Part shown: positions 1 through 64,000 of the stretch, in pieces
How the letters are laid out: each line of letters opens with the position of its first letter
How positions within the stretch are numbered: position 1 is the first letter of the stretch
Assembly (NCBI GenBank): GCA_964016885.1
Contig: OZ024742.1
Location: 167,772,001 to 167,836,000 of the forward strand
Direction: 5' to 3'
From: Eledone cirrhosa
Lineage: Eukaryota
Length of the DNA: 64,000 nt
Notes under the pieces: model-generated
Told to the model about the DNA's origin: nothing
Databases searched by the model: none
The model's input: only the letters and a program-made list of their open reading frames with translations
Translations under genes and position numbers: made by a program

Positions 1-363
1 GTAAAAAAAATCAGAGGGAGATAATTTGTAAAAAAATCAGGGGGAGATAATTTGTAAAAAAAAAATCAGGGGGAGATAATTTGTAAAAAAAATCAGGGGG
101 AGATAATTTGTAAAAAAAAATCAGGGGTAGATAATTTGTAAAAAAAAATCAGGGGGAGATAATTTGTAAAAAAAAATCAGGGGGAGATAATTTGTAAAAA
201 AAATCAAGGGGAGATAATTTCCAGCCGTCCAAGGAGAGATAATTTTAAAAAAAAATCAGGCGGAGATAATTTGTAAAAAAAATCAAGGGGAGATAATTTG
301 TAAAAAAAAATCAGGGGGAGATAATTTGTAAAAAAAATCAAGGGGAGATAATTTCCAGCCGTC

Positions 364-480
364 CAAGGGAAGATAATTTCCAGCACTCCAAGGGGCTATA
401 ATTTCCAGTGTCCAAGGGGAGATAATTTCCAGCCAGCGAAGGGGAGATAATTTTTTTTAAAAAATCAGGGGGAGATATGT
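364..480 (+). repeat. Variant cassette Y, first instance: GGGAAGATAA..C(C/A)CTCC / GGGGCTATAA..CAG(CG/TG/CA)TCC / ..CCAGCCAGCGAAGGGG / TnAm tract
   Basis: The same ordered variant monomers recur at about 1685, 1860, 3230, 3890, 4630, 5335, 6100, 7635, 9130 and throughout the window. Confidence 0.9.
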
Positions 481-515
481 AAAAAAAATCAGAGGGAGAT
501 AATTTCTAAAAAAAA

Positions 516-885
516 TCAAAGGGAGATAATTTCCAGCCGTCCAAAGAGAGATAATTTCTAGCCGTCCAAGGGGAGATAATTTCCAGCCAAGGGAAGATAA
601 TTTCCAGCCGTCCAAGGGGAGATAATTATTTAAAAAATCAGGTGGAGATAATTTGTAAAAAAAATCAGGGGGAGATAATTTGTAAAAACAAAATCAAGGG
701 CAGATAATTTCCAGCTGTCCAAGGGGAGATAATTTCCAGCCGTGCAAGGGGAGATAATTTCCAGCCGTCCAAGGGGAGATAATTTCCATCCTTCCAAGGG
801 GAGATAATCTCCAGCCGTCCAAGGGGAGATAATTTCCCGCCAGCCAAGGGAAGATAATTTTTAAAAAAATCAGGCGGAGATTGTA
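516..885 (+). repeat. Variant cassette Z, first instance: CAAAGGGAG / CCAAAGAGAG..CTAG / 21-bp short monomer / CAGGTGGAG / AAAAACAAAATCAAGGGCAG / CTGTCC / CCGTGCAAG / CCATCCTTCC / CCCGCCAGCC / GGCGGAGATTGT
   Basis: It recurs in the same order near 7785, 11730, 17935, 24560, 31360, 36740, 40890, 43985, 57570 and 59480. It underlies the repeated 60-aa 'MAGGKLSP...KDGNY' ORFs. Confidence 0.9.
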
Positions 886-1113
886 AAAAAAATCAGGGGG
901 AGATAATTTGTAAAAAAATCAGGGGGAGATAATTTGTAAAAAAAAAATCAGGGGAGATAATTTGTAAAAAAAAATCAGGGGGAGATAATTTGTAAAAAAA
1001 AAATCAGGGGGAGATAAATTGTAAAAAAAAATCAGGGGGAGATAATTTGTAAAAAAAAATCAAGGGGAGATAATTTGTAAAAAAAATCAGGGGGAGATAA
1101 TTAGTAAAAAAAT

Positions 1114-1340
1114 CAAGGGGAGATAATTTCCAGCCGTCCAAGGGGAGGTAATATCTAGCCGTCCAAGGGGAGATAATTTCCAGCCGTCCAAGGGGAGATA
1201 ATTTCCAGCCGTCCAAGGGCAGATAATATCCAGCCGTCCAAGTAGACATATTTTCCAGCCGTCCAAGAAGAGGTAATTTCTAGCCGTCCAAGGGGAGATA
1301 AATTCCAGCCTCCAAGGGGAGATAATTTCCAGCCAGCCAA
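1114..1340 (+). repeat. Variant cassette X, first instance: nine type-A monomers including GGAGGTAATATCTAG, GG(T/C)AGATAATATCC, AG(T/G)AGACA(TA)TTTTCC, GAGGTAATTTCTAG, GATAAATTCCAGCCTCC and CCAGCCAGCC
   Basis: It recurs with ends at 2237, 2915, 9531, 13429, 16364, 19657, 22491, 26281, 28125, 35842, 37773, 40094, 41922, 43220, 48571, 50446, 51770, 55341, 60307 and 61857. These are the ORF ends 'MAGWKLSPLGGWNL'. Confidence 0.92.
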
Positions 1341-4300
1341 GGGGAGATAATTTGTAAAAAAATCAGGGGGAGATAATTTGTAAAAAAAATCAGGGGGAGA
1401 TGATTTGTAAAAAAAAATCAGGGGGAGATAATTTGTAAAAAAAATCAGGGGGAGATAATTTGTAAAAAAAAATCAGGGGGTGATAATTTGTAAAAAAAAA
1501 TCAGGGGGAGATAATTTGTAAAAAAAAATCAGGGGGAGATAATTTGTAAAAAAAATCAAGGGGAGATAATTTCCAGCCGTCCAAGGGGAGATAATTTCCA
1601 GCCGTCCAAGGGGAGGTAATATCTAGCCGTCCAAGGGGAGATAATTTCCAGCCGTCCAAGAGGAGATAATTTCCAGCCGTCCAAGGGAAGATAATTTCAA
1701 GCCCTCCAAGGGGCTATAATTTCCAGTGTCCAAGGGGAGATAATTTCCAGCCAGCGAAGGGGAGATAATTTTTTTTTAAAAATCAGGGGGAGATTTGTAA
1801 AAAAAATCAGGGGGAGATAATTTGTAAAAAAAATCAAGGGGAGATAATTTCCAGCCGTCGAAGGGAAGATAATTTCCAGCCCTCCAAGGGGCTATAATTT
1901 CCAGCGTCCAAGGGGAGATAATTTCCAGCCAGCGAAGGGGAGATAATTTTTTAAAAAAAATCATTGGGAGATTTGTAAAAAAAATCAGGGAGAGATAATT
2001 TGTAAAAAAAATCAAGGGGAGATAATTTCCAGCCGTCCAAGGGGAGGTAATATCTAGCCGTCCAAGGGGAGATAATTTCCAGCCGTCCAAGGGGAGATAA
2101 TTTCCAGCCGTCCAAGGGTAGATAATATCCAGCCGTCCAAGTAGACATTTTCCAGCCGTCCAAGGAGAGGTAATTTCTAGCCGTCCAAGGGGAGATAAAT
2201 TCCAGCCTCCAAGGGGAGATAATTTCCAGCCAGCCAAGGGGAGATAATTTGTAAAAAAATCAGGGGGAGATAATTTGTAAAAAAAATCAGGGGGAGATAA
2301 TTTGTAAAAAAAATCAGGGGGAGATAATTTGTAAAAAAAAATCAGGGGGAGATAATTTGTAAAAAAAAATCAGGGGGAGATAATTTGTAAAAAAAATCAA
2401 GGGGAGATAATTTCCAGCCGTCCAAGGGGAGATAATTTTCAGCCGTCCAAGGGGAGATAATTTCCAGCCGTCCAAGGGGAGATAATTTCCAGCCGTCCAA
2501 GGGGAGATAATTTCCAGCCGTCCAAGGGGAGATAGTTTTTTTAAAAAAATCAGGCGGAGATAATTTGTAAAAAAAAAATCAGGGGGAGATAATTTGTAAA
2601 AAAAAATCAGGGGGAGATAATTTGTAAAAAAAAATCAAGGGGAGATAATTTGTAAAAAAAATCAGGGGGAGATAATTAGTAAAAAAATCAAGGGGAGATA
2701 ATTTCCAGCCGTCCAAGGGGAGGTAATATCTAGCCGTCCAAGGGGAGATAATTTCCAGCCGTCCAAGGGGAGATAATTTCCAGCCGTCCAAGGGTAGATA
2801 ATATCCAGCCGTCCAAGTAGACATATTTTCCAGCCGTCCAAGGAGAGGTAATTTCTAGCCGTCCAAGGGGAGATAAATTCCAGCCTCCAAGGGGAGATAA
2901 TTTCCAGCCAGCCAAGGGGAGATAATTTGTAAAAAAATCAGGGGGAGATAATTTGTAAAAAAAATCAGGGGGAGATAATTTGTAAAAAAAATCAGGGGGA
3001 GATAATTTGTAAAAAAAAATCAGGGGGAGATAATTTGTAAAAAAAAATCAGGGGGAGATAATTTGTAAAAAAAAATCAGGGGGAGATAATTTGTAAAAAA
3101 AATCAAGGGGAGATAATTTCCAGCCGTCCAAGGGGAGATAATTTCCAGCCGTCCAAGGGGAGGTAATATCTAGCCGTCCAAGGGGAGATAATTTCCAGCC
3201 GTCCAAGAGGAGATAATTTCCAGCCGTCCAAGGGAAGATAATTTCAAGCCCTCCAAGGGGCTATAATTTCCAGTGTCCAAGGGGAGATAATTTCCAGCCA
3301 GCGAAGGGGAGATAATTTTTTTTTAAAAATCAGGGGGAGATTTGTAAAAAAAATCAGGGGGAGATAATTTGTAAAAAAAATCAAGGGGAGATAATTTCCA
3401 GCCGTCGAAGGGGAGATAATTTCCAGCCAGCGAAGGGGAGATAATTTTTTTTTAAAAATCAGGGGGAGATTTGTAAAAAAAATCAGGGGGAGATAATTTG
3501 TAAAAAAAAATCAGGGGGAGATAATTTGTAAAAAAAATCAATTGGAGATAATTTCCAGCCGTCCAAGTAGAGATAATTTAAAAAAAAAATCAGGCGGAGA
3601 TAATTTGTAAAAAAAAATCAGGGGGAGATAATTTGTAAAAAAAAATCAGGGGTAGATAATTTGTAAAAAAAAATCAGGGGGATGATAATTTGTAAAAAAA
3701 TCAGGGGGAGATAATTTGTAAAAAAAATCAAGGGGAGATAATTTCCAGCCGTCCAAGGAGAGATAATTTTAAAAAAAAATCAGGCGGAGATAATTTGTAA
3801 AAAAAAATCAGGGGGAGATAATTTGTAAAAAAAAATCAGGGGGAGATAATTTGTAAAAAAAATCAAGGGGAGATAATTTCCAGCCGTCGAAGGGAAGATA
3901 ATTTCCAGCCCTCCAAGGGGCTATAATTTCCAGCGTCCAAGGGGAGATAATTTCCAGCCAGCGAAGGGGAGATAATTTTTTTTAAAAAATCATTGGGAGA
4001 TTTGTAAAAAAAATCAGGGGGAGATAATTTGTAAAAAAAATCAAGGGGAGATAATTTCCAGCCGTCCAAGGGGAGGTAATATCTAGCCGTCCAAGGGGAG
4101 ATAATTTCCAGCCGTCCAAGGGGAGATAATTTCCAGCCGTCCAAGGGTAGATAATATCCAGCCGTCCAAGTAGACATTTTCCAGCCGTCCAAGGAGAGGT
4201 AATTTCTAGCCGTCCAAGGGGAGATAAATTCCAGCCTCCAAGGGGAGATAATTTCCCGCCAGCCAAGGGAAGATAATTTTAAAAAAAATCAGGCGGAGAT

Positions 4301-7300
4301 TGTAAAAAAAATCAGGGGGAGATAATTTGTAAAAAAATCAGGGGGAGATAATTTGTAAAAAAAAAATCAGGGGGAGATAATTTGTAAAAAAAAATCAGGG
4401 GGAGATAATTTGTAAAAAAATCAAGGGGAGATAATATGCAGCTGTCCAAGGGGAGATAATTTTCAGCCGTCCAAGGGGAGATAATTTCCCGCCAGCCAAG
4501 GGAAGATAATATTTAAAAAAATCAGGGGGAGATAATTTGTAAAAAAAAATCAGGGGGAGATAATTTGTAAAAAAAATCAGGGGGAGATAATTTGTAAAAA
4601 AAATCAAGGGGAGATAATTTCCAGCCGTCCAAGGGAAGATAATTTCCAGCCCTCCAAGGGGCTATAATTTCCAACGTCCAAGGGGAGATAATTTCCAGCC
4701 AGCGAAGGGGAGATAATTTTTTTAAAAAAATCACTGGGAGATTTGTAAAAAAAATCAGGGGGAGATAATTTGTAAAAAAAATCAAGGGGAGATAATTTCC
4801 AGCCGTCCAAAGAGAGATAATTTCTAGCCGTCCAAGGGGAGATAATTCCCAGCCAAGGGGAGATAATTTCCAGCCGTCCAAGGGGAGATAATTTTTAAAA
4901 AATCAGGTGGAGATAATTTGTAAAAAAAATCAGTGGAAGATAATTTGTAAAAACAAAATCAAGGGCAGATAATTTCCAGCCGTCCAAGGGGAGATAATTT
5001 CCCGCCAGCCAAGGTAGGATAATATTTAAAAAAATCAGGCGGAGATAATTTGTAAAAAAAATCAGGGGGAGATAATTTGTGAAAAAATCAGGGGGAGATA
5101 ATTTGTAAAAGAAAAATCAGGGTCAGATAATTTGTAAAAAAAATCAGGGGGAGATAATTTGTAAAAAAAAATCAGGGGTAGATAATTTGTAAAAAAAAAT
5201 CAGGGGGAGATAATTTGTAAAAAAAATCAAGAGGAGATAATTTCCAGCCGTCCAAGGAGAGATAATTTAAAAAAAAAATCAGGCGGAGATAATTTGTAAA
5301 AAAATCAAGGGGAGATAATTTCCAGCCGTCCAAGGGAAGATAATTTCCAGCCCTCCAAGGGGCTATAATTTCCAGTGTCCAAGGGGAGATAATTTCCAGC
5401 CAGCGAAGGGGAGATAATTTTTTTAAAAAAATCAGGGGGAGATTTGTAAAAAAAATCAGAGGGAGATAATTTGTAAAAAAAATCAAAGGGAGATAATTTC
5501 CAGCCGTCCAAAGAGAGATAATTTCTAGCCGTCCAAGGGGAGATAATTTCCAGCCAAGGGGAGATAATTTCCAGCCGTGCAAGGGGAGATAATTTCCAGC
5601 CGTCGAAGGGGAGATAATTTCCATCCTTCCAAGGGGAGATAATTTCCAGCTGTCCAAGGGGAGATAATTTCCCGCCAGCCAAGGGAAGATAATTTTTTAA
5701 AAAATCAGGCGGAGATTGTAAAAAAATTCAGGGGGAGATAATTTGTAAAAAAATCAGGGGCAGATAATTTGTAAAAAAAAAATCAGGGGGAGATAATTTG
5801 TAAAAAAAAATCAGGGGGAGATAATTTGTAAAAAAAAATCAGGGGGAGATAATTTGTAAAAAAGATTAAGGGGAGATAATTTGCAGCCGTCCAAGGGGAG
5901 ATAATTTTCAGCCGTCCAAGGAGAGGTAATTTCTAGCCGTCCAAGGGGAGATAATTTCCAGCCGTCCAAGGGGAGATAATTTCCAGTCGTCCAAGGGAAG
6001 ATAATTTTTTTAAAAAAATCAGGCGGAGATAATTTGTAAAAAAAAATCAGGGGGAGATAATTTGTAAAAATTCAAGGGGAGATAATTTCCAGCCGTCCAA
6101 GGGAAGATAATTTCCAGCCCTCCAAGGGGCTATAATTTCCAGCGTCCAAGGGGAGATAATTTCCAGCCAGCGAGGGGGAGATAATTTTTTTTAAAAAAAT
6201 CAGGGGGAGATAATTTGTAAAAAAAATCAGGGGGAGATAATTTGTAAATAAAATCAAGGGGAGATAATTTCCAGCCGTCCAAAGAGAGATAATTTCTAGC
6301 CGTCCAAGGGGAGATAATTTCCAGCCAAGGGGAGATAATTTCCAGCCGTCCAAGGGGAGATAATTTTTTAAAAAATCAGGTGGAGATAATTTGTAAAAAT
6401 AATCAGGGGAAGATAATTTGTAAAAACAAAATCAAGGGCAGATAATTTCCAGCCGTCCAAGGGGAGATAATTTCCAGCAGTGCAAGGGGAGATAATTTCC
6501 AGCCGTCCAAGGGGAGATAATTTCCATCCTTCCAAGGGGAGATAATTTCCAGCCGTCCAAGGGGAGATAATTTCCCGCCAGCCAAGGAGAGATAATATTT
6601 AAAAAAATCAGGCGGAGATAATTTGTAAAAAAAATCAGGGGGAGATAATTTGTAAAAAAATCAGGGGGAGATAATTTGTAAAAAAAATCAGGGGGAGATA
6701 ATTTGTAAAAAGAAAATCAGGGGTAGATAATTTGTAAAAAAAAATCAGGGGGAGATAATTTGTAAAAAAAAAATCAGGGGGAGATAATTTGTAAAAAAAT
6801 CAAGGGGAGATAATTTGCAGCCGTCCAAGGGGAGATAATTTTCAGCCGTCCAAGGAGAGGTAATTTCTAGCCGTCCAAGGGGAGATAATTTCCAGCCGTC
6901 CAAGGGGAGATAATTTCCAGCCGTCCAAGGGGAGATAATTTTTAAAAAGAAATCAGGCGGAGATAATTTGTAAACAAAAATCAGGGGGAGATAATTTGTA
7001 AAAAAAAATCAGGGGGAGATAATTTGTAAAAAAAATCAGGGGGAAATAATTTGTAAAAAAAATCAAGCGGAGATAATTTCCAGCCGTCCAAGGGGAGGTA
7101 ATATCTAGCCATCCAAGGGGAGATAATTTCCAGCCGTCCAAGGGGAGATAATTTCCAGCCGTCCAAGGGGAGATAATTTCCAGCCGTCCAAGGAGACATA
7201 TTTTCCAGCCGTCCAAGGAGAGGTAATATCTAGCCGTACAAGGGGAGATAAATTCCAGCATCCAAGGGGAGATAATTTCCAGCCAGCCAAGGGGAGATAA

Positions 7301-10300
7301 TTTGTAAAAAAATCAGGGGGAGATAATTTGTAAAAAAAATCAGGGGGAGATAATTTGTAAAAAAAATCAGAGGGAGATAATTTGTAAAAAAAAATCAGGG
7401 GGAGATAATTTGTAAAAAAAATCAAGGGGAGATAATTTCCAGCCGTCCAAGGGGAGATAATTTGCAGCCGTCCAAGGGGAGATAATTTCCAGCCGTCCAA
7501 GGGGAGATAAGTTGTAAAAAAAAATCAGGCGGAGATAATTTGTAAAAAAAATCAAGGGGAGATAATTTGTAAAAAAAAATCAGGGGGAGATAATTTGTAA
7601 AAAAAATCAAGGGGAGATAATTTCCAGCCGTCCAAGGGAAGATAATTTCCAGCACTCCAACGGCCTATAATTTGCAGTGTCCAAGGGGAGATAATTTCCA
7701 GCCAGCGAAGGGGAGATAATTTTTTTAAAAAAATCAGGGGGAGATATGTAAAAAAAATCAGAGGGAGATAATTTCTAAAAAAAATCAAAGGGAGATAATT
7801 TCCAGCCGTCCAAAGAGAGATAATTTCTAGCCGTCCAAGGGGAGATAATTTCCAGCCAAGGGGAGATAATTTCCAGCCGTCCAAGGGGAGATAATTATTT
7901 AAAAAATCAGGTGGAGATAATTTGTAAAAAAAATAAGGGGGAGATAATTTGTAAAAACAAAATCAAGGGCAGATAATTTCCAGCTGTCCAAGGGGAGATA
8001 ATTTCCAGCCGTGCAAGGGGAGATAATTTCCAGCCGTCCAAGGGGAGATAATTTCCATCCTTCCAAGGGGAGATAATTTCCAGCCGTCCAAGGGGAGATA
8101 ATTTCCCGCCAGCCAAGGAAAGATAATTTTTTAAAAAATCAGGCGGAGATTGTAAAAAAAATCAGGGGGAGATAATTTGTAAAAAAATCAGGAGGAGATA
8201 ATTTGTAAAAAAATCAAGGGGAGATAATTTCCAGCTGTCCAAGGGGAGGTAATATCTAGCCGTCCAAGGGGAGATAATTTTCAGCCGTCCAAGGGGAGAT
8301 AATTTCCAGCCGTCCAAGGGTAGATAATATCCAGCCGTCCAAGGAGACATATTTTCCAGCCGTCCAAGGAGAGGTAATTTCTAGCCGTCCAAGTGGAGAT
8401 AAATTATAGCCTCCAAGGGGAGATAATTTCCAGCCAGCCAAGGGGAGATAATTTGTAAAAAAATCAGGGGGAGATAATTTGTAAAAAAAATCAGGGGGAG
8501 ATAATTTGTAAAAAAAAATCAGGGGGAGATAATTTGTAAAAAAAATCAGGGGGAGATAATTTGTAAAAAAATCAAGGGGAGATAATTTCCAGCCGTCCAA
8601 GGAGAGATAATTTAAAAAAAAAATCAGGCGGAGATAATTTGTAAAAAAAAATCAGGGGGAGATAATTTGTAAAAATAAATCAGGGGGAGATAATTTATAA
8701 AAAAAATCAAGGGGAGATAATTTCCAGCCGTCCAAGGGGAGATAATTTTCAGCCGTCCAAGGGGAGATAATTTCCAGCCGTCCAAGGGGAGATAATTTTA
8801 AAAAAAAATCAGGCGGAGATAATTTGTAAAAAAAATCAAGGGTAGATAATTTGCAACCGTCCAAGGGGACATAATTTTCAGTCGTCCAAGGAGAGGTAAT
8901 TTCTAGCCGTACAAGGGGAGATAATTTCCAGCCGTCCAAGGGGAGATAATTTCCAGCCGTCCAAGGGGAGATAATTTTTTTTTAAAAATCAGGCGGAGAT
9001 AATTTGTAAAAAAAAAATCAGGGGGAGATAATTTGTAAAAAAAAATCAGGGGGAGATAATTTGTAAAAAAAAATCAGGGGGAGATAATTTGTAAAAAAAA
9101 TCAAGGGGAGATAATTTCCAGCCGTCCAAGGGAAGATAATTTCCAGCCCTCCAAGGGGCTATAATTTCCAGCGTCCAAGGGGAGATAATTTCCAGCCAGC
9201 GAAGGGGAGATAATTGTTTTAAAAAAATCATTGGGAGATTTGTAAAAAAAATCAGGGGGAGATAATTAATAAAAAAAATCAAGGGGAGATAATTCCCAGC
9301 CGTCCAAGGGGAGGTAATATCTAGCCGTCCAAGGGGAGATAATTTCCAGCCGTCCAAGGGGAGATAATTTCCAGCCGTCCAAGGGTAGATAATATCCAGC
9401 CGTCCAAGGGTAGATAATATCCAGCCGTCCAAGGAGACATATTTTCCAGCCGTCCAAGGAGAGGTAATTTCTAGCCGTCCAAGGGGAGATAAATTCCAGC
9501 CTCCAAGGGGAGATAATTTCCAGCCAGCCAAGGGGAGATAATTTGTAAAAAAATCAGGGGGAGATAATTTGTAAAATAAATCAGGGGTAGATAATTTGTA
9601 AAAAAAAATCAGGGGGAGATAATTTGTAAAAAAAAATCAGGGGGAGATAATTTGTAAAAAAAATCAAGGGGAGATAATTTCCAGCCGTCCAAGGAGAGAT
9701 AATTTTAAAAAAAAATCAGGCGGAGATAATTTGTAAAAAAAAATCAGGGGGAGATAATTTGTAAAAAAAAATCAGGGGGAGATAATTTGTAAAAAAAATC
9801 AAGGGGAGATAATTTCCAGCCGTCCAAGGGGAGATAATTTCCAGCCGTCCAAGGGGAAATAATTTTTTTAAAAAAATCAGGCGGAGATAATTTGTAAAAA
9901 AAATCAGGGGGAGATAATTTGTAAAAAAAAATCAGGGGGAGATAATTTGTAAAAAAAAATCAGGGAGAGATAATTTCCAGCCGTCCAAGGTAAGATAATT
10001 TCCAGCCCTCCAAGGGGCTATAATTTCCAGCATCCAAGGGGAGATAATTTCCAGCCGTCCAAGGGTAGATAATATCCAGCCGTCCAAGTAGACATATTTT
10101 CCAGCCGTCCAAGGAGAGGTAATTTCTAGCCGTCCAAGGGGAGATAAATTACAGCCTCCAAGGGGAGATAATTTCCAGCCGTCCAAGGGGAGATAATTTA
10201 AAAAAAAAAACAGGCGAAGATAATTTGTAAAAAAAAAATCAGGGGGAGATAATTTGTAAAAAAAAATCAGGGGGAGATAATTTGTAAAAAAAAATCAGGG

Positions 10301-13300
10301 GGAGGTAATTTGTGAAAAAAAATCAAGGGGAGATAATTTCCAGCCGTCCAAGGGAAGATAATTTCCAGCCCTCCAAGGGGCTATAATTTCCAGCGTCCAA
10401 GGGGAGATAATTTCCAGCCAGCGAAGGGGAGATAATTTTTTTTTTTTAAATCAGGGGGACATAATTTGTAAAAAAAATCAGGGGGAGATAATTTGTAAAA
10501 AAAATCAGGGGGAGATAATTTGTAAAAAAAATCAAGGGTAGATAATTTGTAAAAAAAAATCAAGGGGAGATAATTTCCAGCCGTCCAAGGGGAGATAATT
10601 TTCAGCCGTCCAAGGGGAGATAATTTCCCGCCAGCCAAGGAAAGATAATATTTAAAAAAATCAGGCGGAGATAATTTGTAAAAAAAATCAGGGGGAGATA
10701 ATTTGTAAAAAAATCAGGGGGAGATAATTTGTAAAAAAAAATCAGGGGGAGATAATTTGTAAAAAAAATCAGGGGGAGATAATTTGTAAAAAAAAATCAG
10801 GGGGAGATAATTTGTAAAAAAAAATCAGGGGGAGATAATTTGTAAAAAAAATCAATTGGAGATAATTTCCAGCCGTCCAAGGGGAGATAATTTTCAGCCG
10901 TCCAAGGAGAGGTAATTTCTAGACGTCCAAGGGGAGATAATTTCCAGCCGTCCAAGGGGAGATAATTTCCAGCCGTCCAAGGGTAGATAATATCCAGCCG
11001 TCCAAGGAGACATATTTTCCAGCTTTCCAAGGAGAGGTAATTTCTAGCCGTCCAAGGGGAGATAAATTCCAGCCTCCAAGGGGAGATAATTTCCAGCCAG
11101 CCAAGGGGAGATAATTTGTAAAAAAATCAGGGGGAGATAATTTGTAAAAAAAAATCAGGGGCAGATAATTTGTAAAAAAAATCAGGGGGAGATAATTTGT
11201 AAAAAAAATCAGGGGGAGATAATTTGTAAAAAAAATCAAGGGGAGATAATTTCCAGCCGTCCAAGGGGAGATAATTTTCAGCCGTCCAAGGGGAGATAAT
11301 TTCCCGCCAGCCAAGGGAAGATAATATTTAAAAAATGAGGCGGAGATAATTTGTAAAAAAAATCAGGGGGAGATAATTTGTAAAAAAATCAGGGGGAGAT
11401 AATTTGTAAAAAAAAAATCAGGGAGAGATAATTTGTAAAAAAAATCAGGGGGAGATAATTTGTAAAAAAAAATCAGGGGTAGATAATTTGTAAAAAAAAA
11501 TCAGGGGGAGATAATTTGTAAAAAAAATCAGGGGGAGATAATTTGTAAAAAAAATCAAGGGGAGATAATTTCCAGCCGTCCAAGGGAAGATAATTTCAAG
11601 CCCTCCAAGGGGCTATAATTTCCAGTGTCCAAGGGGAGATAATTTCCAGCCAGCGAAGGGGAGATAATTTTTTTTTTTAAATCAGGGGGAGATTTGTACA
11701 AAAAATCAGGGGGAGATAATTTGTAAAAAAAATCAAAGGGAGATAATTTCCAGCCGTCCAAAGAGAGATAATTTCTAGCCGTCCAAGGGGAGATAATTTC
11801 GAGCCAAGGGGAGATAATTTCCAGCCGTCCAAGGGGAGATAATTTTTTAAAAAATCAGGTGGAGATAATTTGTAAAAAAAATCAGGGGGAGATAATTTGT
11901 AAAAACAAAATCAAGGGCAGATAATTTCCAGCTGTCCAAGGGGAGATAATTTCCAGCCGTGCAAGGGGAGATAATTTCCAGCCGTCCAAGGGGAGATAAT
12001 TTCCATCCTTCCAAGGGGAGATAATTTCCAGCCGTCCAAGGGGAGATAATTTCCCGCCAGCCAAGGGAAGATAATTTTTTAAAAAATCAGGCGGAGATTG
12101 TAAAAAAAATCAGGGGGAGATAATTTGTAAAAAAATCAGGGGGAGATAATTTCCAGCTGTCCAAGGGGAGGTAATATCTAGCCGTCCAAGGGGAGATAAT
12201 TTCCAGCCGTCCAAGGGGAGATAAATTCCATCCGTCCAAGGGTAGATAATATCCAGCCGTCCAAGGAGACATATTTTCCAGCCGTCCAAGGAGAGGTAAT
12301 TTCTAGCCGTCCAAGTGGAGATAAATTCCAGACTCCAAGGGGAGATAATTTCCAGCCAGCCAAGGGGAGATAATTTGTAAAAAAATCAGGGGGAGATAAT
12401 TTGTAAAAAAAATCAGGGGGAGATAATTTGTAAAAAAAAATCAGGGAGAGATAATTTGTAAAAAAAATCAGGGGGAGATAATTTGTAAAAAAAATCAAGG
12501 GGAGATAATTTCCAGCCGTCCAAGGAGAGATAATTTTAAAAAAAAATCAGGCGGAGATAATTTGTAAAAAAAAATCAGGGGGAGATAATTTGTAAAAAAA
12601 AATCAGGGGGAGATAATTTGTAAAAAAAATCAAGGGGAGATAATTTCCAGCCGTCCAAGGGGAGATAATTTTCAGCCGTCCAAGGGGAGATAATTTCCAG
12701 CCGTCCAAGGGGAGATAATTTAAAAAAAAAATCAGGCGGAGATAATTTGTAAAAAAAATCAAGGGGAGATAATTTGCAACCGTCCAAGGGGACATAATTT
12801 TCAGTCGTCCAAGGAGAGGTAATTTCTAGCCGTACAAGGGGAGATAATTTCCAGCCGTCCAAGGGGAGATAATTTCCAGCCGTCCAAGGGGAGATAATTT
12901 TTTTTTAAAAATCAGGCGGAGATAATTTGTAAAAAAAAAATCAGGGGGAGATAATTTGTAAAAAAAAATCAGGGGGAGATAATTTGTAAAAAAAAATCAG
13001 GGGGAGATAATTTGTAAAAAAAATCAAGGGGAGATAATTTCCAGCCGTCCAAGGGAAGATAATTTCCAGCCCTCCAAGGGGCTATAATTTCCAGCGTCCA
13101 AGGGGAGATAATTTCCAGCCAGCGAAGGGGAGATAATTGTTTTAAAAAAATCATTGGGAGATTTGTAAAAAAAATCAGGGGGAGATAATTAATAAAAAAA
13201 ATCAAGGGGAGATAATTTCCAGCCGTCCAAGGGGAGGTAATATCTAGCCGTCCAAGGGGAGATAATTTCCAGCCGTCCAAGGGGAGATAATTTCCAGCCG

Positions 13301-13739
13301 TCCAAGGGTAGATAATATCCAGCCGTCCAAGGAGACATATTTTCCAGCCGTCCTAGGAGAGGTAATTTCTAGCCGTCCAAGGGGAGATAAATTCCAGCCT
13401 CCAAGGGGAGATAATTTCCAGCCAGCCAAGGGGAGATAATTTGTAAAAAAATCAGGGGGAGATAATTTGTAAAAAAAATCAGGGGTAGATAATTTGTAAA
13501 AAAAAATCAGGGGGAGATAATTTGTAAAAAAAAATCAGGGGGAGATAATTTGTAAAAAAAATCAAGGGGAGATAATTTCCAGCCGTCCAAGGAGAGATAA
13601 TTTTAAAAAAAAATCAGGCGGAGATAATTTGTAAAAAAAAATCAGGGGGAGATAATTTGTAAAAAAAAATCAGGGGGAGATAATTTGTAAAAAAAATCAA
13701 GGGGAGATAATTTCCAGCCGTCCAAGGGGAGATAATTTC

Positions 13740-15680: not shown

Positions 15681-16469
15681 CAAGGGAAGATAATATTTTA
15701 AAAAATCAGGCGGAGATAATTTGTAAAAAAAATCAGGGGGAGATAATTTGTAAAAAAATCAGGGGGAGATAATTTGTAAAAAAAAAATCAGGGGGAGATA
15801 ATTTGTAAAAAAAATCAGGGGGAGATAATTTGTAAAAAAAAAATCAGGGGTAGATAATTTGTAAAAAAAAATCAGGGGGAGATAATTTGTAAAAAAAAAA
15901 TCAGGGGGAGATAATTTGTAAAAAAAATCAGGGGGAGATAATTTGTAAAAAAAAATCAGGGGGAGATAATTTCCAGCCGTCCAAGGGGAGATAATTTTCA
16001 GCCGTCCAAGGGGAGATAATTTCCCGCCAGCCAAGGGAAGATAATATTTAAAAAAATCAGGCGGAGATAATTTGTAAAAAAAATCAGGGGGAGATAATTT
16101 GTAAAAAAATCAGGGGGAGATAATTTGTAAAAAAAATCAAGGGGAGATAATTTCCAGCCGTCCAAGGGGAGGTAATATCTAGCCGTCCAAGGGGAGATAA
16201 TTTCCAGCCGTCCAACAGGAGATAATTTCCAGCCGTCCAAGGGTAGATAATATCCAGCCGTCCAAGGAGACATATTTTCCAGCCGTCCAAGGAGAGGTAA
16301 TTTCTAGCCGTCCAAGGGGAGATAAATTCCAGCCTCCAAGGGGAGATAATTTCCAGCCAGCCAAGGGGAGATAATTTGTAAAAAAAATCAGGGGGAGATA
16401 ATTTGTAAAAAAAATCAGGGGGAGATAATTTGTAAAAAAAAATCAGGGGGAGATAATTTGTAAAAAAAA

Positions 16470-19400
16470 TCAGGGGGAGATAATTTGTAAAAAAAAATCA
16501 AGGGGAGATAATTTCCAGCCGTCCAAGGGGAGATAATTTTCAGCCGCCCAAGGGGAGATAATTTTCCGCCAGCCAAGGGAAGATAATATTTAAAAAATCA
16601 GGCGGAGATAATTTGTAAAAAAAATCAGGGGGAGATAATTTGTAAAAAAATCAGGGGGAGATAATTTGTAAAAAAAAAATCAGGGGGAGATAATTTGTAA
16701 AAGAAATCAGGGGGAGATGATTTGTAAAAAAAAATCAGGGGTAGATAATTTGTAAAAAAAAATCAGGGGGAGATAATTTGTAAAAAAAAATCAGGGGGAG
16801 ATAATTTGTAAAAAAAATCAAGGGGAGATAATTTCCAGCCGTCGAAGGGAAGATAATTTCCAGCCCTCCAAGGGGCTATAATTTCCAGCGTCCAAGGGGA
16901 GATAATTTCCAGCCGTCCAAGGGGAGATAATTTCCAGCCGTCCAAGGGTAGATAATATCCAGCCGTCCAAGTAGACATTTTCCAGCCGTCCAAGGAGAGG
17001 TAATTTCTAGCCGTCCAAGGGGAGATAAATTCCAGCCTCCAAGGGAAGATAATTTCCAGCCAGCCAAGGGGAGATAATTTGTAAAAAAAAATCAGGGGGA
17101 GATAATTTGTAAAAAAAAATCAGGGGGAGATAATTTGTAAAAAAAAATCAGGGGGAGATAATTTGTAAAAAAAATCAGGGGGAGATAATTTGTAAAAAAA
17201 ATCAAGGGGAGATAATTTCCAGCCGTCCAAGGGGAGATAATTATCAGCCGTCCAAGGGGAGATAATTTCCAGCCGTCCAAGGGGAGATAATTTCCATCCT
17301 TCCAAGGGGAGATAATTTCCAGCCGTCCAAGGGGAGATAATTTTCAGCCGTCCAAGGGGAGATAATTTCCCGCCAGCCAAGGGAAGATAATATTTTAAAA
17401 AATCAGGCGGAGATAATTTGTAAAAAAAATCAGGGGGAGATAATTTGTAAAAAAATCAGGGGGAGATAATTTGTAAAAAAAAAATCAGGGGGAGATAATT
17501 TGTAAAAAAAATCAGGGGGAGATAATTTGTAAAAAAAAATCAGGGGTAGATAATTTGTAAAAAAAAATCAGGGGGAGATAATTTGTAAAAAAAAAATCAG
17601 GGGGAGATAATTTGTAAAAAAAATCAAGGGGAGATAATTTCCAGCCGTCCAAGGAGAGATAATTTTTAAAAAAAATCAGGCGGAGATAATTTGTAAAAAA
17701 AATCAAGGGGAGATAATTTGTAAAAAAAAATCAGGGGGAGATAATTTGTAAAAAAAATCAAGGGGAGATAATTTCCAGCCGTCCAAGGGAAGATAATTTC
17801 CAGCACTCCAACGGGCTATAATTTGCAGTGTCCAAGGGGAGATAATTTCCAGCCAGCGAAGGGGAGATAATTTTTTTAAAAAAATCAGGGGGAGATATGT
17901 AAAAAAAATCAGAGGGAGATAATTTCTAAAAAAAATCAAAGGGAGATAATTTCCAGCCGTCCAAAGAGAGATAATTTCTAGCCGTCCAAGGGGAGATAAT
18001 TTCCAGCCAAGGGGAGATAATTTCCAGCCGTCCAAGGGGAGATAATTATTTAAAAAATCAGGTGGAGATAATTTGTAAAAAAAATCAGGGGGAGATAATT
18101 TGTAAAAACAAAATCAAGGGCAGATAATTTCCAGCTGTCCAAGGGGAGATAATTTCCAGTCGTGCAAGGGGAGATAATTTCCAGCCGTCCAAGGGGAGAT
18201 AATTTCCATCCTTCCAAGGGGAGATAATTTCCAGCCGTCCAAGGGGAGATAATTTCCCGCCAGCCAAGGAAAGATAATTTTTTAAAAAATCAGGCGGAGA
18301 TTGTAAAAAAAATCAGGGGGAGATAATTTGTAAAAAAATCAGGAGGAGATAATTTGTAAAAAAATCAAGGGGAGATAATTTCCAGCTGTCCAAGGGGAGG
18401 TAATATCTAGCCGTCCAAGGGGAGATAATTTTCAGCCGTCCAAGGGGAGATAATTTCCAGCCGTCCAAGGGTAGATAATATCCAGCCGTCCAAGGAGACA
18501 TATTTTCCAGCCGTCCAAGGAGAGGTAATTTCTAGCCGTCCAAGTGGAGATAAATTCCAGCCTCCAAGGGGAGATAATTTCCAGCCAGCCAAGGGGAGAT
18601 AATTTGTAAAAAAATCAGGGGGAGATAATTTGTAAAAAAAATCAGGGGGAGATAATTTGTAAAAAAAAATCAGGGGGAGATAATTTGTAAAAAAAATCAG
18701 GGGGAGATAATTTGTAAAAAAAATCAAGGGGAGATAATTTCCAGCCGTCCAAGGAGAGATAATTTAAAAAAAAAATCAGGCGGAGATAATTTGTAAAAAA
18801 AAATCAGGGGGAGATAATTTGTAAAAAAAAATCAGGGGGAGATAATTTGTAAAAAAAATCAAGGGGAGATAATTTCCAGCCGTCCAAGGGGAGATAATTT
18901 TCAGCCGTCCAAGGGGAGATAATTTCCAGCCGTCCAAGGGGAGATAATTTTAAAAAAAAATCAGGCGGAGATAATTTGTAAAAAAAATCAAGGGTAGATA
19001 ATTTGCAACCGTCCAAGGGGACATAATTTTCAGTCGTCCATGGAGAGGTAATTTCTAGCCGTACAAGGGGAGATAATTTCCAGCCGTTCAAGGGGAGATA
19101 ATTTCCAGCCGTCCAAGGGGAGATAATTTTTTTTTAAAAATCAGGCGGAGATAATTTGTAAAAAAAAAATCAGGGGGAGATAATTTGTAAAAAAAAATCA
19201 GGGGGAGATAATTTGTAAAAAAAAATCAGGGGGAGATAATTTGTAAAAAAAATCAAGGGGAGATAATTTCCAGCCGTCCAAGGGAAGATAATTTCCAGCC
19301 CTCCAAGGGGCTATAATTTCCAGCGTCCAAGGGGAGATAATTTCCAGCCAGCGAAGGGGAGATAATTGTTTTAAAAAAATCATTGGGAGATTTGTAAAAA

Positions 19401-28400: not shown

Positions 28401-28730
28401 TGTAAAAAAAATCAGGGGGAGATAATTTGTAAAAAAATCAGGGGGAGATAATTTGTAAAAAAAAAATCAGGGGGAGATGATTTGTAAAAAAAATCAGGGG
28501 GAGATAATTTGTAAAAAAAAATCAGGGGTAGATAATTTGTAAAAAAAAATCAGGGGGAGATAATTTGTAAAAAAAATCAAGGGGAGATAATTTCCAGCCG
28601 TCCAAGGGAAGATAATTTCAAGCCCTCCAAGGGGCTATAATTTCCAGTGTCCAAGGGGAGATAATTTCCAGCCAGCGAAGGGGAGATAATTTTTTTTTAA
28701 AAATCAGGGGGAGATTTGTAAAAAAAATCA
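16470..28730 (+). repeat. Tandem higher-order duplication: copy 1 ~16470-23095 (6,624 bp) and copy 2 ~23095-28730 (~5.63 kb)
   Basis: Offset 6,624 holds for ORFs 16763/23387 through 19472/26096, then 5,748 and 5,634. Private markers include CCATGG (19038/25662), CCGTTCAAG, CAGTCGTGC and ATTTTCCGCC. Confidence 0.92.
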
Positions 28731-58966: not shown

Positions 58967-61900
58967 GTAAAAAAAATCAGGGGGAGATAATTTGTAAAAA
59001 AATCAGGGGGAGATAATTTGTAAAAAAAAAATCAGGGGGAGATAATTTGTAAAAAAAATCAGGGGGAGATAATTTGTAAAAAAAAATCAGGGGTAGATAA
59101 TTTGTAAAAAAAAATCAGGGGGAGATAATTTGTAAAAAAAAATCAGGGGGAGATGATTTGTAAAAAAAAATCAAGGGGAGATAATTTCCAGCCGTCCAAG
59201 GAGAGATAATTTTAAAAAAAAATCAGGCGGAGATAATTTGTAAAAAAAATCAAGGGGAGATAATTTGTAAAAAAAAATCAGGGGGAGATAATTTGTAAAA
59301 AAAATCAAGGGGAGATAATTTCCAGCCGTCCAAGGGAAGATAATTTCCAGCACTCCAAGGGGCTATAATTTCCAGTGTCCAAGGGGAGATAATTTCCAGC
59401 CAGCGAAGGGGAGATAATTTTTTTTAAAAAATCAGGGGGAGATATGTAAAAAAAATCAGAGGGAGATAATTTCTAAAAAAAATCAAAGGGAGATAATTTC
59501 CAGCCGTCCAAAGAGAGATAATTTCTAGCCGTCCAAGGGGAGATAATTTCCAGCCAAGGGAAGATAATTTCCAGCCGTCCAAGGGGAGATAATTATTTAA
59601 AAAATCAGGTGGAGATAATTTGTAAAAAAAATCAGGGGGAGATAATTTGTAAAAACAAAATCAAGGGCAGATAATTTCCAGCTGTCCAAGGGGAGATAAT
59701 TTCCAGCCGTGCAAGGGGAGATAATTTCCAGCCGTCCAAGGGGAGATAATTTCCATCCTTCCAAGGGGAGATAATCTCCAGCCGTCCAAGGGGAGATAAT
59801 TTCCCGCCAGCCAAGGGAAGATAATTTTTAAAAAAATCAGGCGGAGATTGTAAAAAAAATCAGGGGGAGATAATTTGTAAAAAAATCAGGGGGAGATAAT
59901 TTGTAAAAAAAAAATCAGGGGAGATAATTTGTAAAAAAAAATCAGGGGGAGATAATTTGTAAAAAAAAAATCAGGGGGAGATAATTTGTAAAAAAAAATC
60001 AGGGGGAGATAATTTGTAAAAAAAAATCAAGGGGAGATAATTTGTAAAAAAAATCAGGGGGAGATAATTAGTAAAAAAATCAAGGGGAGATAATTTCCAG
60101 CCGTCCAAGGGGAGGTATTATCTAGCCGTCCAAGGGGAGATAATTTCCAGCCGTCCAAGGGGAGATAATTTCCAGCCGTCCAAGGGCAGATAATATCCAG
60201 CCGTCCAAGTAGACATATTTTCCAGCCGTCCAAGGAGAGGTAATTTCTAGCCGTCCAAGGGGAGATAAATTCCAGCCTCCAAGGGGAGATAATTTCCAGC
60301 CAGCCAAGGGGAGATAATTTGTAAAAAAATCAGGGGGAGATAATTTGTAAAAAAAATCAGGGGGAGATGATTTGTAAAAAAAAATCAGGGGGAGATAATT
60401 TGTAAAAAAAATCAGGGGGAGATAATTTGTAAAAAAAAATCAGGGGGTGATAATTTGTAAAAAAAAATCAGGGGGAGATAATTTGTAAAAAAAAATCAGG
60501 GGGAGATAATTTGTAAAAAAAATCAAGGGGAGATAATTTCCAGCCGTCCAAGGGGAGATAATTTCCAGCCGTCCAAGGGGAGGTAATATCTAGCCGTCCA
60601 AGGGGAGATAATTTCCAGCCGTCCAAGAGGAGATAATTTCCAGCCGTCCAAGGGAAGATAATTTCAAGCCCTCCAAGGGGCTATAATTTCCAGTGTCCAA
60701 GGGGAGATAATTTCCAGCCAGCGAAGGGGAGATAATTTTTTTTTAAAAATCAGGGGGAGATTTGTAAAAAAAATCAGGGGGAGATAATTTGTAAAAAAAA
60801 TCAAGGGGAGATAAATTCCAGCCGTCGAAGGGAAGATAATTTCCAGCCCTCCAAGGGGCTATAATTTCCAGCGTCCAAGGGGAGATAATTTCCAGCCAGC
60901 GAAGGGGAGATAATTTTTTAAAAAAAATCATTGGGAGATTTGTAAAAAAAATCAGGGAGAGATAATTTGTAAAAAAAATCAAGGGGAGATAATTTCCAGC
61001 CGTCCAAGGGGAGGTAATATCTAGCCGTCCAAGGGGAGATAATTTCCAGCCGTCCAAGGGGAGATAATTTCCAGCCGTCCAAGGGTAGATAATATCCAGC
61101 CGTCCAAGTAGACATTTTCCAGCCGTCCAAGGAGAGGTAATTTCTAGCCGTCCAAGGGGAGATAAATTCCAGCCTCCAAGGGGAGATAATTTGTAAAAAA
61201 ATCAGGGGGAGATAATTTGTAAAAAAAATCAGGGGGAGATAATTTGTAAAAAAAATCAGGGGGAGATAATTTGTAAAAAAAAATCAGGGGGAGATAATTT
61301 GTAAAAAAAAATCAGGGGGAGATAATTTGTAAAAAAAATCAAGGGGAGATAATTTCCAGCCGTCCAAGGGGAGATAATTTTCAGCCGTCCAAGGGCAGAT
61401 AATTTCCAGCCGTCCAAGGGGAGATAATTTCCAGCCGTCCAAGGGGAGATAATTTCCAGCCGTCCAAGGGGAGATAGTTTTTTTAAAAAAATCAGGCGGA
61501 GATAATTTGTAAAAAAAAAATCAGGGGGAGATAATTTGTAAAAAAAAATCAGGGGGAGATAATTTGTAAAAAAAAATCAAGGGGAGATAATTTGTAAAAA
61601 AAATCAGGGGGAGATAATTAGTAAAAAAATCAAGGGGAGATAATTTCCAGCCGTCCAAGGGGAGGTAATATCTAGCCGTCCAAGGGGAGATAATTTCCAG
61701 CCGTCCAAGGGGAGATAATTTCCAGCCGTCCAAGGGTAGATAATATCCAGCCGTCCAAGTAGACATATTTTCCAGCCGTCCAAGGAGAGGTAATTTCTAG
61801 CCGTCCAAGGGGAGATAAATTCCAGCCTCCAAGGGGAGATAATTTCCAGCCAGCCAAGGGGAGATAATTTGTAAAAAAATCAGGGGGAGATAATTTGTAA

Positions 61901-64000
61901 AAAAAATCAGGGGGAGATAATTTGTAAAAAAAATCAGGGGGAGATAATTTGTAAAAAAAAATCAGGGGGAGATAATTTGTAAAAAAAAATCAGGGGGAGA
62001 TAATTTGTAAAAAAAAATCAGGGGGAGATAATTTGTAAAAAAAATCAAGGGGAGATAATTTCCAGCCGTCCAAGGGGAGATAATTTCCAGCCGTCCAAGG
62101 GGAGGTAATATCTAGCCGTCCAAGGGGAGATAATTTCCAGCCGTCCAAGAGGAGATAATTTCCAGCCGTCCAAGGGAAGATAATTTCAAGCCCTCCAAGG
62201 GGCTATAATTTCCAGTGTCCAAGGGGAGATAATTTCCAGCCAGCGAAGGGGAGATAATTTTTTTTTTAAAATCAGGGGGAGATTTGTAAAAAAAATCAGG
62301 GGGAGATAATTTGTAAAAAAAATCAAGGGGAGATAATTTCCAGCCGTCGAAGGGGAGATAATTTCCAGCCAGCGAAGGGGAGATAATTTTTTTTTAAAAA
62401 TCAGGGGGAGATTTGTAAAAAAAATCAGGGGGAGATAATTTGTAAAAAAAAATCAGGGGGAGATAATTTGTAAAAAAAATCAATTGGAGATAATTTCCAG
62501 CCGTCCAAGTAGAGATAATTTAAAAAAAAAATCAGGCGGAGATAATTTGTAAAAAAAAATCAGGGGGAGATAATTTGTAAAAAAAAATCAGGGGTAGATA
62601 ATTTGTAAAAAAAAATCAGGGGGATGATAATTTGTAAAAAAATCAGGGGGAGATAATTTGTAAAAAAAATCAAGGGGAGATAATTTCCAGCCGTCCAAGG
62701 AGAGATAATTTTAAAAAAAAATCAGGCGGAGATAATTTGTAAAAAAAAATCAGGGGGAGATAATTTGTAAAAAAAAATCAGGGGGAGATAATTTGTAAAA
62801 AAAATCAAGGGGAGATAATTTCCAGCCGTCGAAGGGAAGATAATTTCCAGCCCTCCAAGGGGCTATAATTTCCAGCGTCCAAGGGGAGATAATTTCCAGC
62901 CAGCGAAGGGGAGATAATTTTTTTTAAAAAATCATTGGGAGATTTGTAAAAAAAATCAGGGGGAGATAATTTGTAAAAAAAATCAAGGGGAGATAATTTC
63001 CAGCCGTCCAAGGGGAGGTAATATCTAGCCGTCCAAGGGGAGATAATTTCCAGCCGTCCAAGGGGAGATAATTTCCAGCCGTCCAAGGGTAGATAATATC
63101 CAGCCGTCCAAGTAGACATTTTCCAGCCGTCCAAGGAGAGGTAATTTCTAGCCGTCCAAGGGGAGATAAATTCCAGCCTCCAAGGGGAGATAATTTCCCG
63201 CCAGCCAAGGGAAGATAATTTTAAAAAAAATCAGGCGGAGATTGTAAAAAAAATCAGGGGGAGATAATTTGTAAAAAAATCAGGGGGAGATAATTTGTAA
63301 AAAAAAAATCAGGGGGAGATAATTTGTAAAAAAAAATCAGGGGGAGATAATTTGTAAAAAAATCAAGGGGAGATAATATGCAGCTGTCCAAGGGGAGATA
63401 ATTTTCAGCCGTCCAAGGGGAGATAATTTCCCGCCAGCCAAGGGAAGATAATATTTAAAAAAATCAGGGGGAGATAATTTGTAAAAAAAAATCAGGGGGA
63501 GATAATTTGTAAAAAAAATCAGGGGGAGATAATTTGTAAAAAAAATCAAGGGGAGATAATTTCCAGCCGTCCAAGGGAAGATAATTTCCAGCCCTCCAAG
63601 GGGCTATAATTTCCAACGTCCAAGGGGAGATAATTTCCAGCCAGCGAAGGGGAGATAATTTTTTTAAAAAATCACTGGGAGATTTGTAAAAAAAATCAGG
63701 GGGAGATAATTTGTAAAAAAAATCAAGGGGAGATAATTTCCAGCCGTCCAAAGAGAGATAATTTCTAGCCGTCCAAGGGGAGATAATTCCCAGCCAAGGG
63801 GAGATAATTTCCAGCCGTCCAAGGGGAGATAATTTTTAAAAAATCAGGTGGAGATAATTTGTAAAAAAAATCAGTGGAAGATAATTTGTAAATACAAAAT
63901 CAAGGGCAGATAATTTCCAGCCGTCCAAGGGGAGATAATTTCCCGCCAGCCAAGGTAGGATAATATTTAAAAAAATCAGGCGGAGATAATTTGTAAAAAA
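58967..64000 (+). repeat. Copy 2 of the segment at 1-5059, truncated by the window end
   Basis: Colinear with 1-5059. It differs by scattered substitutions and lacks one 25-bp CCAGCCAGCC monomer near 61190. Confidence 0.95.

What the first reader, a model, noticed from the sequence alone, without database searches (positions are those of the whole stretch)
1..64000. Two-state satellite: a constant 16-bp core with alternative GC-rich or A-tract spacers, arranged by a reproducible grammar
Seen: every unit is CA(A/G)GGGGAGATAATTT followed by either CCAGCCGTC or GT(A)nT. Runs of roughly 1-9 of each type alternate. The third core base largely predicts the next spacer (CAAG before the GC spacer, CAGG before the A-tract), with exceptions. 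A-to-B exits use dedicated monomers: CCAGCCAGCC, CCCGCCAGCC followed by GGGAAG, or a TnAm tract followed by CAGGCGG. Established: satellite higher-order repeats such as primate alpha satellite usually repeat one fixed monomer string. Inference: this array is instead a mosaic of reusable cassettes, and it may be an undescribed family in which the core is a retained binding site or recombination handle. I cannot assign it to a known family.
Basis: partly seen in the sequence, partly recalled or inferred. Interest (0 to 1): 0.75.

Follow-up and report, generated by a model that had tools for sequence, protein, structure and literature searches.

The report
Two-type octopus satellite, copied-block mosaic
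This is part of a megabase-scale octopus repeat in which short runs of two related 25-28-base units alternate in an ordered but non-repeating pattern, likely inherited by copying longer blocks rather than imposed by a protected core, and likely older forms of the repeat still line the array edges.

Summary
The window is 2,466 monomers of two types in 485 runs (shuffles about 1,235). Dedicated junction monomers exist: 158 of 158 GCCAGC-ending 25-mers sit at GC-to-A exits. But only 41% of units fit the stated formula, and the third core base follows both neighbours (CAGG almost only between two A-spacers). The order is inherited: 66% of the window has a near-identical copy of at least 1 kb nearby, which Markov grammars cannot reproduce. 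The core is not more conserved than the spacers (7.5 vs 7.1 rare variants per site, p=0.76). The genome is an octopus (mitochondrial ND2 identical to Eledone cirrhosa). The family totals roughly 20 Mb in interior arrays on at least six chromosomes, all with the same rules. Two array edges carry likely older layers with the same core and other spacers. No published description was found in 10 paper searches; Dfam, Repbase and nt could not be searched. This scan noted the same family earlier on other DNA of this genome (e1-10323831). Verdict: an apparently undescribed satellite with irregular, multi-level higher-order structure, likely pericentromeric heterochromatin; centromere role untested.

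The parts
1..64000 (+). Two-type satellite array, interior of a roughly 2.0-Mb + strand array (G000:C3 about 165.87-167.89 Mb)
   Evidence: extent from sampled points and hit lists
205..229 (+). Example modal GC-spacer monomer (25 bp; 349 exact copies)
178..204 (+). Example modal A-tract monomer (27 bp; tract of mostly 7-10 A; 581 copies ignoring tract length)
413..465 (+). Example G-to-A junction: exit monomer ending CCAGCCAGC plus TnAm entry monomer
820..893 (+). Example second junction class: CCCGCCAGC exit, GGGAAG core with TnAm, then CAGGCGG core
339..1113 (+). Recurrent three-cycle cassette chain (families D-F-M; D followed by F in 9 of 12, F by M or N in 9 of 9)
1114..1337 (+). Nine-monomer G run of the commonest cycle family (27 of 242 cycles), also seen in C1 and other C3 arrays
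16456..26618 (+). 3.5-kb near-identical block pair, 16456-19994 and 23080-26618 (offset 6,624; longest exact repeat 2,116 bp)
2234..6566 (+). 4.3-kb block copied about 58.9 kb downstream (61176 to beyond the window end)
5802..11258 (+). 5.5-kb block with a 99.9% copy 11.35 kb upstream, just outside the window

Best explanation
The window is a non-coding satellite whose two monomer types alternate in an ordered, non-periodic mosaic, and that order is likely inherited from a small ancestral two-block unit that was diversified and then amplified by in-register duplication and deletion of whole monomers and of 0.5-6 kb blocks, with the shared core likely acting only as passive homology. Shown: ordered runs, junction-bound variants, long near-identical blocks at many offsets, the same rules on six chromosomes, no extra conservation of the core, and related layers at two array edges. 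Inferred: the edge layers are older (19-bp core unit, then a 25-bp GC-only unit with an AT-rich insert, then the present two-type form); junction monomers are frozen because copying rarely homogenises a type boundary; the arrays are pericentromeric or fusion-site heterochromatin. The source of the A-tract spacer is not identified.
For: Repeated 20-monomer words cover 21.5% of positions, against 0% for first-order and about 0% (max 0.6%) for second-order Markov simulations and 0.2% for shuffled cycles. 85%, 66% and 34% of the window has a near-identical copy of at least 0.5, 1 and 2 kb within the 84 kb examined, at offsets from 1 to 70 kb. The same variant cassettes and third-base rule occur in sampled arrays on C1, C2, C3, C4, C7 and C21, while shared 12-monomer words fall from 552 of 1,120 next to the window to 0 on C1 and C2. 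Rare one-step G variants: 7.5 per core site, 7.1 per spacer site, n=184, p=0.76, in 40 sequences totalling 311 kb. A GC-only layer joins the present form in register and without a gap on the 5' side on C3 and C1; it has its own insert-adjacent exit variants (CCAGCAAGC or CCAGCAGGC before 31 of 56 inserts). The modern exit spacer CCAGCCAGC is one change from the edge-layer spacer and two from the modern G spacer (sequence).
Against: My neutral simulations gave junction-bound variants (median 0-3, maximum 6; observed 7) and long shared words, but a smaller entropy drop than observed, mostly shorter runs, and only 14-24 of 30 replicates stayed two-type, so simple neutral copying was not shown to be sufficient. 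The G fraction stays at 0.36-0.59 in all 40 sequences; common ancestry can explain this but so could constraint. Copy-weighted, the G spacer is more variable than the core (10.3% vs 5.7%, or 8.3% vs 6.9% without exit monomers), and the window-only rare-variant test leaned towards core conservation (p=0.08). The core persists across at least four spacer types in this genome. The direction of the layer series is inferred from position and parsimony only. No parent for the A spacer beat shuffles.
Confidence: 0.75

Rival explanations
1. The 16-bp core is a selected protein-binding box (it contains AGATAA, a GATA-type motif, recalled) and spacers are free to be exchanged around it.
For: The core stretch AGGGGAGATAAT persists with spacers CGAGC, CCAGCCGGC, CCAGCCGTC, GT(A)nT and GGGGAAGAA. 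In A monomers the AGATAA positions show 0.3-1.4% substitutions against 3-12% in the G tract. Precedent in Meloidogyne (PMC3694981 section 13; PMC13404089 abstract).
Against: Rare variants hit core and spacer equally, and AGATAA is not spared (6.8 vs 7.5 per site). Edge layers: core 7.5% vs spacer 6.9%, and 8.2% vs 9.4%. Common variants break AGATAA. Three of the spacers are related by small changes, so only the A tract is a clear replacement.
Confidence: 0.1
2. The family is functional centromeric DNA of the four giant chromosomes and a few others.
For: Large arrays at 44-65% of C1-C4 and 50% of C21, layered edges as in alpha satellite (PMC9549924 passages), oppositely oriented arrays around a centre on C2 and C3.
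Against: Four complete hit lists (27, 50, 79 and 13 hits, the first two overlapping) fall on only C2, C3, C4, C7, C21, C27 and five unplaced contigs, plus C1; none on most small chromosomes. C1 and C4 each have two arrays 28-41 Mb apart. Other satellites adjoin the arrays (196-bp, 9-bp AT-rich). Assembly gaps flank the minus C3 array, so its orientation is uncertain.
Confidence: 0.2
3. The order is actively generated by frequent recombination at the shared core, a short-range grammar rather than inheritance.
For: Hybrid junctions exist: CAGG core before a G spacer in 21 of 242 exits from A runs, direct GT(A)n entries in 55 of 242, CAAG core between two A spacers 28 times; edge joins are in register.
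Against: Frequent in-core exchange would put CAGG before most G runs (13 of 15 breakpoint intervals lie after the third base); observed 9%. Markov models fail to give the long shared words.
Confidence: 0.12
4. The multi-kb repeats are assembly artefacts.
For: Some blocks are 99.9-100% identical over 3-5 kb; raw reads were not examined.
Against: Identity is graded (99.2-100%), offsets are many, and sharing decays with distance and between chromosomes; no N in the window.
Confidence: 0.03

Closest known systems
Meloidogyne box-containing satellites (17-bp Box 1, PMC3694981 abstract and section 13; 19-bp box, PMC13404089 abstract)
   Same: Different monomer types share a short motif, and transitions between types fall at the motif; simple and higher-order forms coexist.
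   Different: There the box stays conserved among monomers only 32-64% alike, resembles the CENP-B box and marks CenH3 centromeres. Here the core is 60% of a 25-28 bp unit, is not more conserved than the spacer, and no centromere link is tested.
Primate alpha satellite: A/B monomers, SF3/SF5, higher-order structural variants, layered edges (PMC9549924, passages)
   Same: Two monomer types differing in one short segment, whole-monomer insertions and deletions, hybrid monomers, irregular alternation, older layers at array edges, spread between chromosomes.
   Different: 171-bp monomers with a primary higher-order unit and a proven binding box in the variable segment. Here monomers are 25-28 bp, types come in runs of about five, and no primary period was found.
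Tribolium madens TmSat1/TmSat2 (PMC13081366, abstract)
   Same: Two related satellites from one element intermingled over megabases, conserved transition zones, arrays in both orientations.
   Different: About 110-bp source element, 38% of the genome, all chromosomes. Here about 0.7% of the genome, a subset of chromosomes, and alternation every 130 bp or so.

Membership tests
Satellite DNA | Long head-to-tail non-coding arrays | tested here: met
   2,466 monomers fill the window; array about 2 Mb; longest stop-free stretch 72 codons on + and 197 on -; no Rfam match in bases 1-10,000
Canonical higher-order repeat (alpha-satellite type) | One primary monomer string repeated with a fixed period | tested here: not met
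   36-81 cycle families depending on threshold, no single period; block offsets 1-70 kb
Canonical higher-order repeat (alpha-satellite type) | Multi-monomer blocks more alike than neighbouring monomers; variants are whole-monomer indels and hybrids | tested here: met
   Blocks 99%+ identical while monomers differ by about 6%; hybrids counted
Box-containing satellites (Meloidogyne type) | Shared motif more conserved than the rest of the monomer | tested here: not met
   copy-weighted leans slightly the other way
Box-containing satellites (Meloidogyne type) | Type transitions located at the shared motif | tested here: met
   All type switches and both edge-layer joins are in register at the core; partly true by construction
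Centromeric satellite | CENP-A/CenH3 occupancy | not testable with these tools
   no chromatin data
Centromeric satellite | One array on every chromosome | tested here: not met
   Sampled hits on 7 of about 27 chromosome-sized sequences, two arrays on C1 and on C4; sampling is sparse and unplaced contigs may belong to other chromosomes
Transposon-borne (MITE/Helentron-type) tandem repeat | Repeat is an internal part of dispersed element copies | tested here: not met
   0 of 23 other copies of the dispersed element flanking the small C27 array run into the core (24 of 40 scored matches fetched)
Any named satellite in Dfam, Repbase or nt | Sequence match to a catalogued consensus | not testable with these tools
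   Libraries not available; motif letters found in 0 papers

The most novel reading that the evidence does not exclude
This family is the (peri)centromeric DNA of the giant fused chromosomes of an octopus, and its edges preserve a readable series in which one short core outlived three spacer replacements; the near 1:1 balance of GC-rich and A-tract runs is maintained for a chromatin function rather than by descent alone.
Probability: 0.12. Interest if true: 0.7.

Novelty: new variant of a known kind. Interest (0 to 1): 0.36.

Why it matters
My searches found no description of centromeric or satellite DNA in octopuses, and this lineage has a rearranged karyotype (PMC12682272, passages). A roughly 20-Mb family in the middle of the giant chromosomes gives FISH and CENP-A probes. 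The short monomers with many marked variants, frozen junctions and edge layers also make it a clean natural dataset for testing how higher-order structure arises and how one satellite replaces another.

Tried and rejected
Fixed-period higher-order repeat: not found. Short-range Markov grammar: rejected. Constrained core or GATA motif: rejected on rare variants. A-spacer derived from the adjacent 196-bp repeat or from the edge-layer AT-rich insert: no alignment beat 300 shuffles (best p about 0.06). Mobile-element origin via the dispersed repeat beside the C27 copy: 0 of 23. Phased A-tract bending: tract spacing is 26-28.5 bp, not a multiple of the helical repeat of about 10.5 bp (recalled value). 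Structured RNA: none at Rfam thresholds in the first 10 kb. One search's edge-layer conservation figures came from a biased pattern and were replaced. The blastn step returned nothing, probably from invalid options, and was redone; undercounts duplications because A-tract length changes break matches. Sequencing runs: 20 of 24 listed runs hold some words (4 hold half or more, one organism label); 14 other organism labels and a wastewater run hold 0.10-0.38; none was laid on the sequence, so occurrence in other species stays open; no RNA holder listed. Look-ups of earlier findings by sequence and near this place gave nothing relevant.
Full report
Observation. A dynamic-programming decomposition with the two commonest units as templates gave 2,466 monomers, 1,239 with the GC spacer (G) and 1,227 with the A tract (A), all on the + strand. 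Types form 485 runs against 1,235 +/- 26 in 1,000 shuffles; G runs are 1-12 long and A runs 2-10, both averaging about five. The third core base is A after a G spacer in 1,236 of 1,239 cases regardless of what follows; after an A spacer it is G in 936 of 983 A-to-A steps and A in 221 of 242 A-to-G steps. So it predicts the next spacer only after an A tract. The junction rules are real: 158 of 158 GCCAGC-ending 25-mers are exits (158 of 242 exits), 187 of 242 entries are TnAm, and xAGGCG cores are second in the A run in 111 of 111. Variant-level conditional entropy is 2.15 bits against 3.70 and 3.22 in two shuffle controls.

Where the order comes from. Words of 20 monomers recur at 21.5% of positions; first- and second-order Markov simulations give about 0% and shuffling whole G+A cycles gives 0.2%. 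Cycles fall into 36-81 families depending on threshold, and their order is itself non-random (1.19 vs 2.55 bits) but has no fixed period. Within the window plus 10 kb on each side, 85% of the window has a near-identical copy of at least 500 bp, 66% of at least 1 kb and 34% of at least 2 kb, at offsets from 1 to 70 kb. The same cassettes and rules appear in sampled arrays on C1, C2, C3, C4, C7 and C21, with more CAGG-before-G hybrids in some (10 of 19 at C7, 10 of 29 at one C2 sample), and long-word sharing decays with distance. This is what descent from one diversified mosaic by block copying predicts. Two sets of neutral simulations produced junction-bound variants and long shared words but not the full entropy drop, and some replicates lost one type; the mechanism is therefore likely but not shown sufficient.

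The core. Copy-weighted, G monomers differ by 5.7% in the core and 10.3% in the spacer, but 6.9% and 8.3% without exit monomers; non-entry A monomers have 2.2% substitutions in the core and 0.4% in the spacer. Rare variants in the window alone leaned towards core conservation (p=0.08); pooled over 40 sequences (311 kb, 184 rare one-step variants) the rates were 7.5 and 7.1 per site (p=0.76), and the AGATAA stretch was not spared. The edge layers show the same equality. A minority of junctions are hybrids formed in register within the core (21 of 242, 55 of 242, and 28 CAAG cores inside A runs), so the core serves as homology, but most junctions are inherited.

Genome context. The window is G000:C3:167,772,001-167,836,000 of a 3.0-Gb genome with four giant chromosomes. 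Mitochondrial ND2 from the same assembly is 100% identical to Eledone cirrhosa and at most 77% to other octopods. One exact 41-bp dimer has 54,775 hits and 171 in the window, giving a rough 20 Mb or 0.7%. Arrays were found at C1 251-252 and 279 Mb, C2 244-251 Mb (interrupted), C3 162.7-169.1 Mb, C4 206 and 247 Mb, C7 29.7 Mb, C21 17.6 Mb, a 2.4-kb insert on C27 and five unplaced contigs. They adjoin a 196-bp repeat, 9-bp and 11-14-bp AT-rich satellites and, at C2, C7 and one unplaced contig, telomere-type tracts. Our array ends without a gap in the 9-bp satellite at C3 167.893 Mb.

Edge layers. On the 5' side of our array lie about 3 kb of a composite with 19-bp core units, a palindrome-rich block and an AT-rich block, then about 10 kb of GC-only 25-bp units (spacer CCAGCCGGC) with a 200-400 bp AT-rich insert in the spacer slot, then the present form, joined in register. 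The GC-only layer also lines the 5' edge of the C1 array, with a different join. Its third base is A in 796 of 804 units, and it has its own insert-adjacent exit variants (copies are not independent, so no p-value is claimed). The modern exit spacer is one change from the edge spacer and two from the modern G spacer. I infer that the edge layers are older and that exits are frozen relics; the direction is not proven, and the A spacer's source was not found.

Comparison. It works like an irregular higher-order satellite with structural variants and layered edges (PMC9549924, passages on A/B monomers, structural variants and layers) and resembles Meloidogyne box satellites in layout (PMC3694981, abstract and section 13; PMC13404089, abstract) and T. 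madens intermingled satellites (PMC13081366, abstract). It fails membership of the canonical fixed-period type and of the conserved-box type. Inverted satellite blocks at cichlid centromeres (PMC13652916, abstract) are only a loose parallel, since gaps flank the minus C3 array. Ten paper searches found neither the motif nor an octopus satellite or centromere study; two cephalopod genome papers were term-searched and show no satellite analysis. No supplements were read, and they or subscription papers could hold a description. Dfam, Repbase and nt could not be searched.

Earlier scan notes. e1-10323831 reports the same two-type family on another piece and reaches a similar reading; my preceded seeing it. 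e1-10328835 pointed to composite edge layers, which I saw independently and then examined. e1-10311123 and e1-10347674 name other centromere candidates, which I did not test beyond seeing a 196-bp repeat beside a C2 array.

Verdict. Real and apparently undescribed, unusual in its short two-type run mosaic and readable edge layers, but explained well enough by known satellite dynamics; the constrained-core idea is not supported. Interest 0.36.

Noticed in passing
L098 1-3260 (G000:C3 165.860-165.863 Mb); L143-L146 (C2 192.17 Mb): Composite repeat of about 1 kb: 19-bp core units, a block rich in the palindrome TGCGCATGCGCA, and an AT-rich block; the C2 copy appears isolated among other repeats.
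   Followed up: partly
L084 2200-4660 (G000:C27 1.68 Mb): Isolated 2.4-kb copy of the two-type mosaic in ordinary DNA, abutting a dispersed MITE-like fragment; its 3' end passes through other spacers (GGGGAAGAA, CGAGC).
   Followed up: yes
L103 (G000:C3 179.47 Mb): Small isolated GC-only array running through its AT-rich insert into a different GGGTGCCCCG-type tandem repeat, which also interrupts the C7 array (L083, L165).
   Followed up: no
G000:C3 162.7-167.9 Mb (L072, L069, L007, L070, L054): Mirror-like layout: 9-bp AT-rich satellite, minus array, about 200 kb of 55-, 57- and 88-bp satellites, plus array, 9-bp satellite; N gaps flank the minus array.
   Followed up: partly
L073 and L059 1-590 (G000:C2 244.30 Mb); L154 (245.0 Mb): 196-bp GC-rich satellite joined directly to this family's array and interrupting it.
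   Followed up: partly
L157 (C2 251.2 Mb), L164 (C7 29.45 Mb), L099 and L112 (C1499 start): Telomere-type tracts close to arrays of this family, possibly marking fusion sites or short arms.
   Followed up: no
L010-L012, L055, L056, L150, L151 (G000:C3 167.9-168.7 Mb): About 0.8 Mb of very AT-rich simple satellites (9-bp unit; CCATT plus A-tract unit) between two arrays of this family.
   Followed up: no
L042 and one search hits on C2: Several nuclear copies of mitochondrial COX1 on C2.
   Followed up: no
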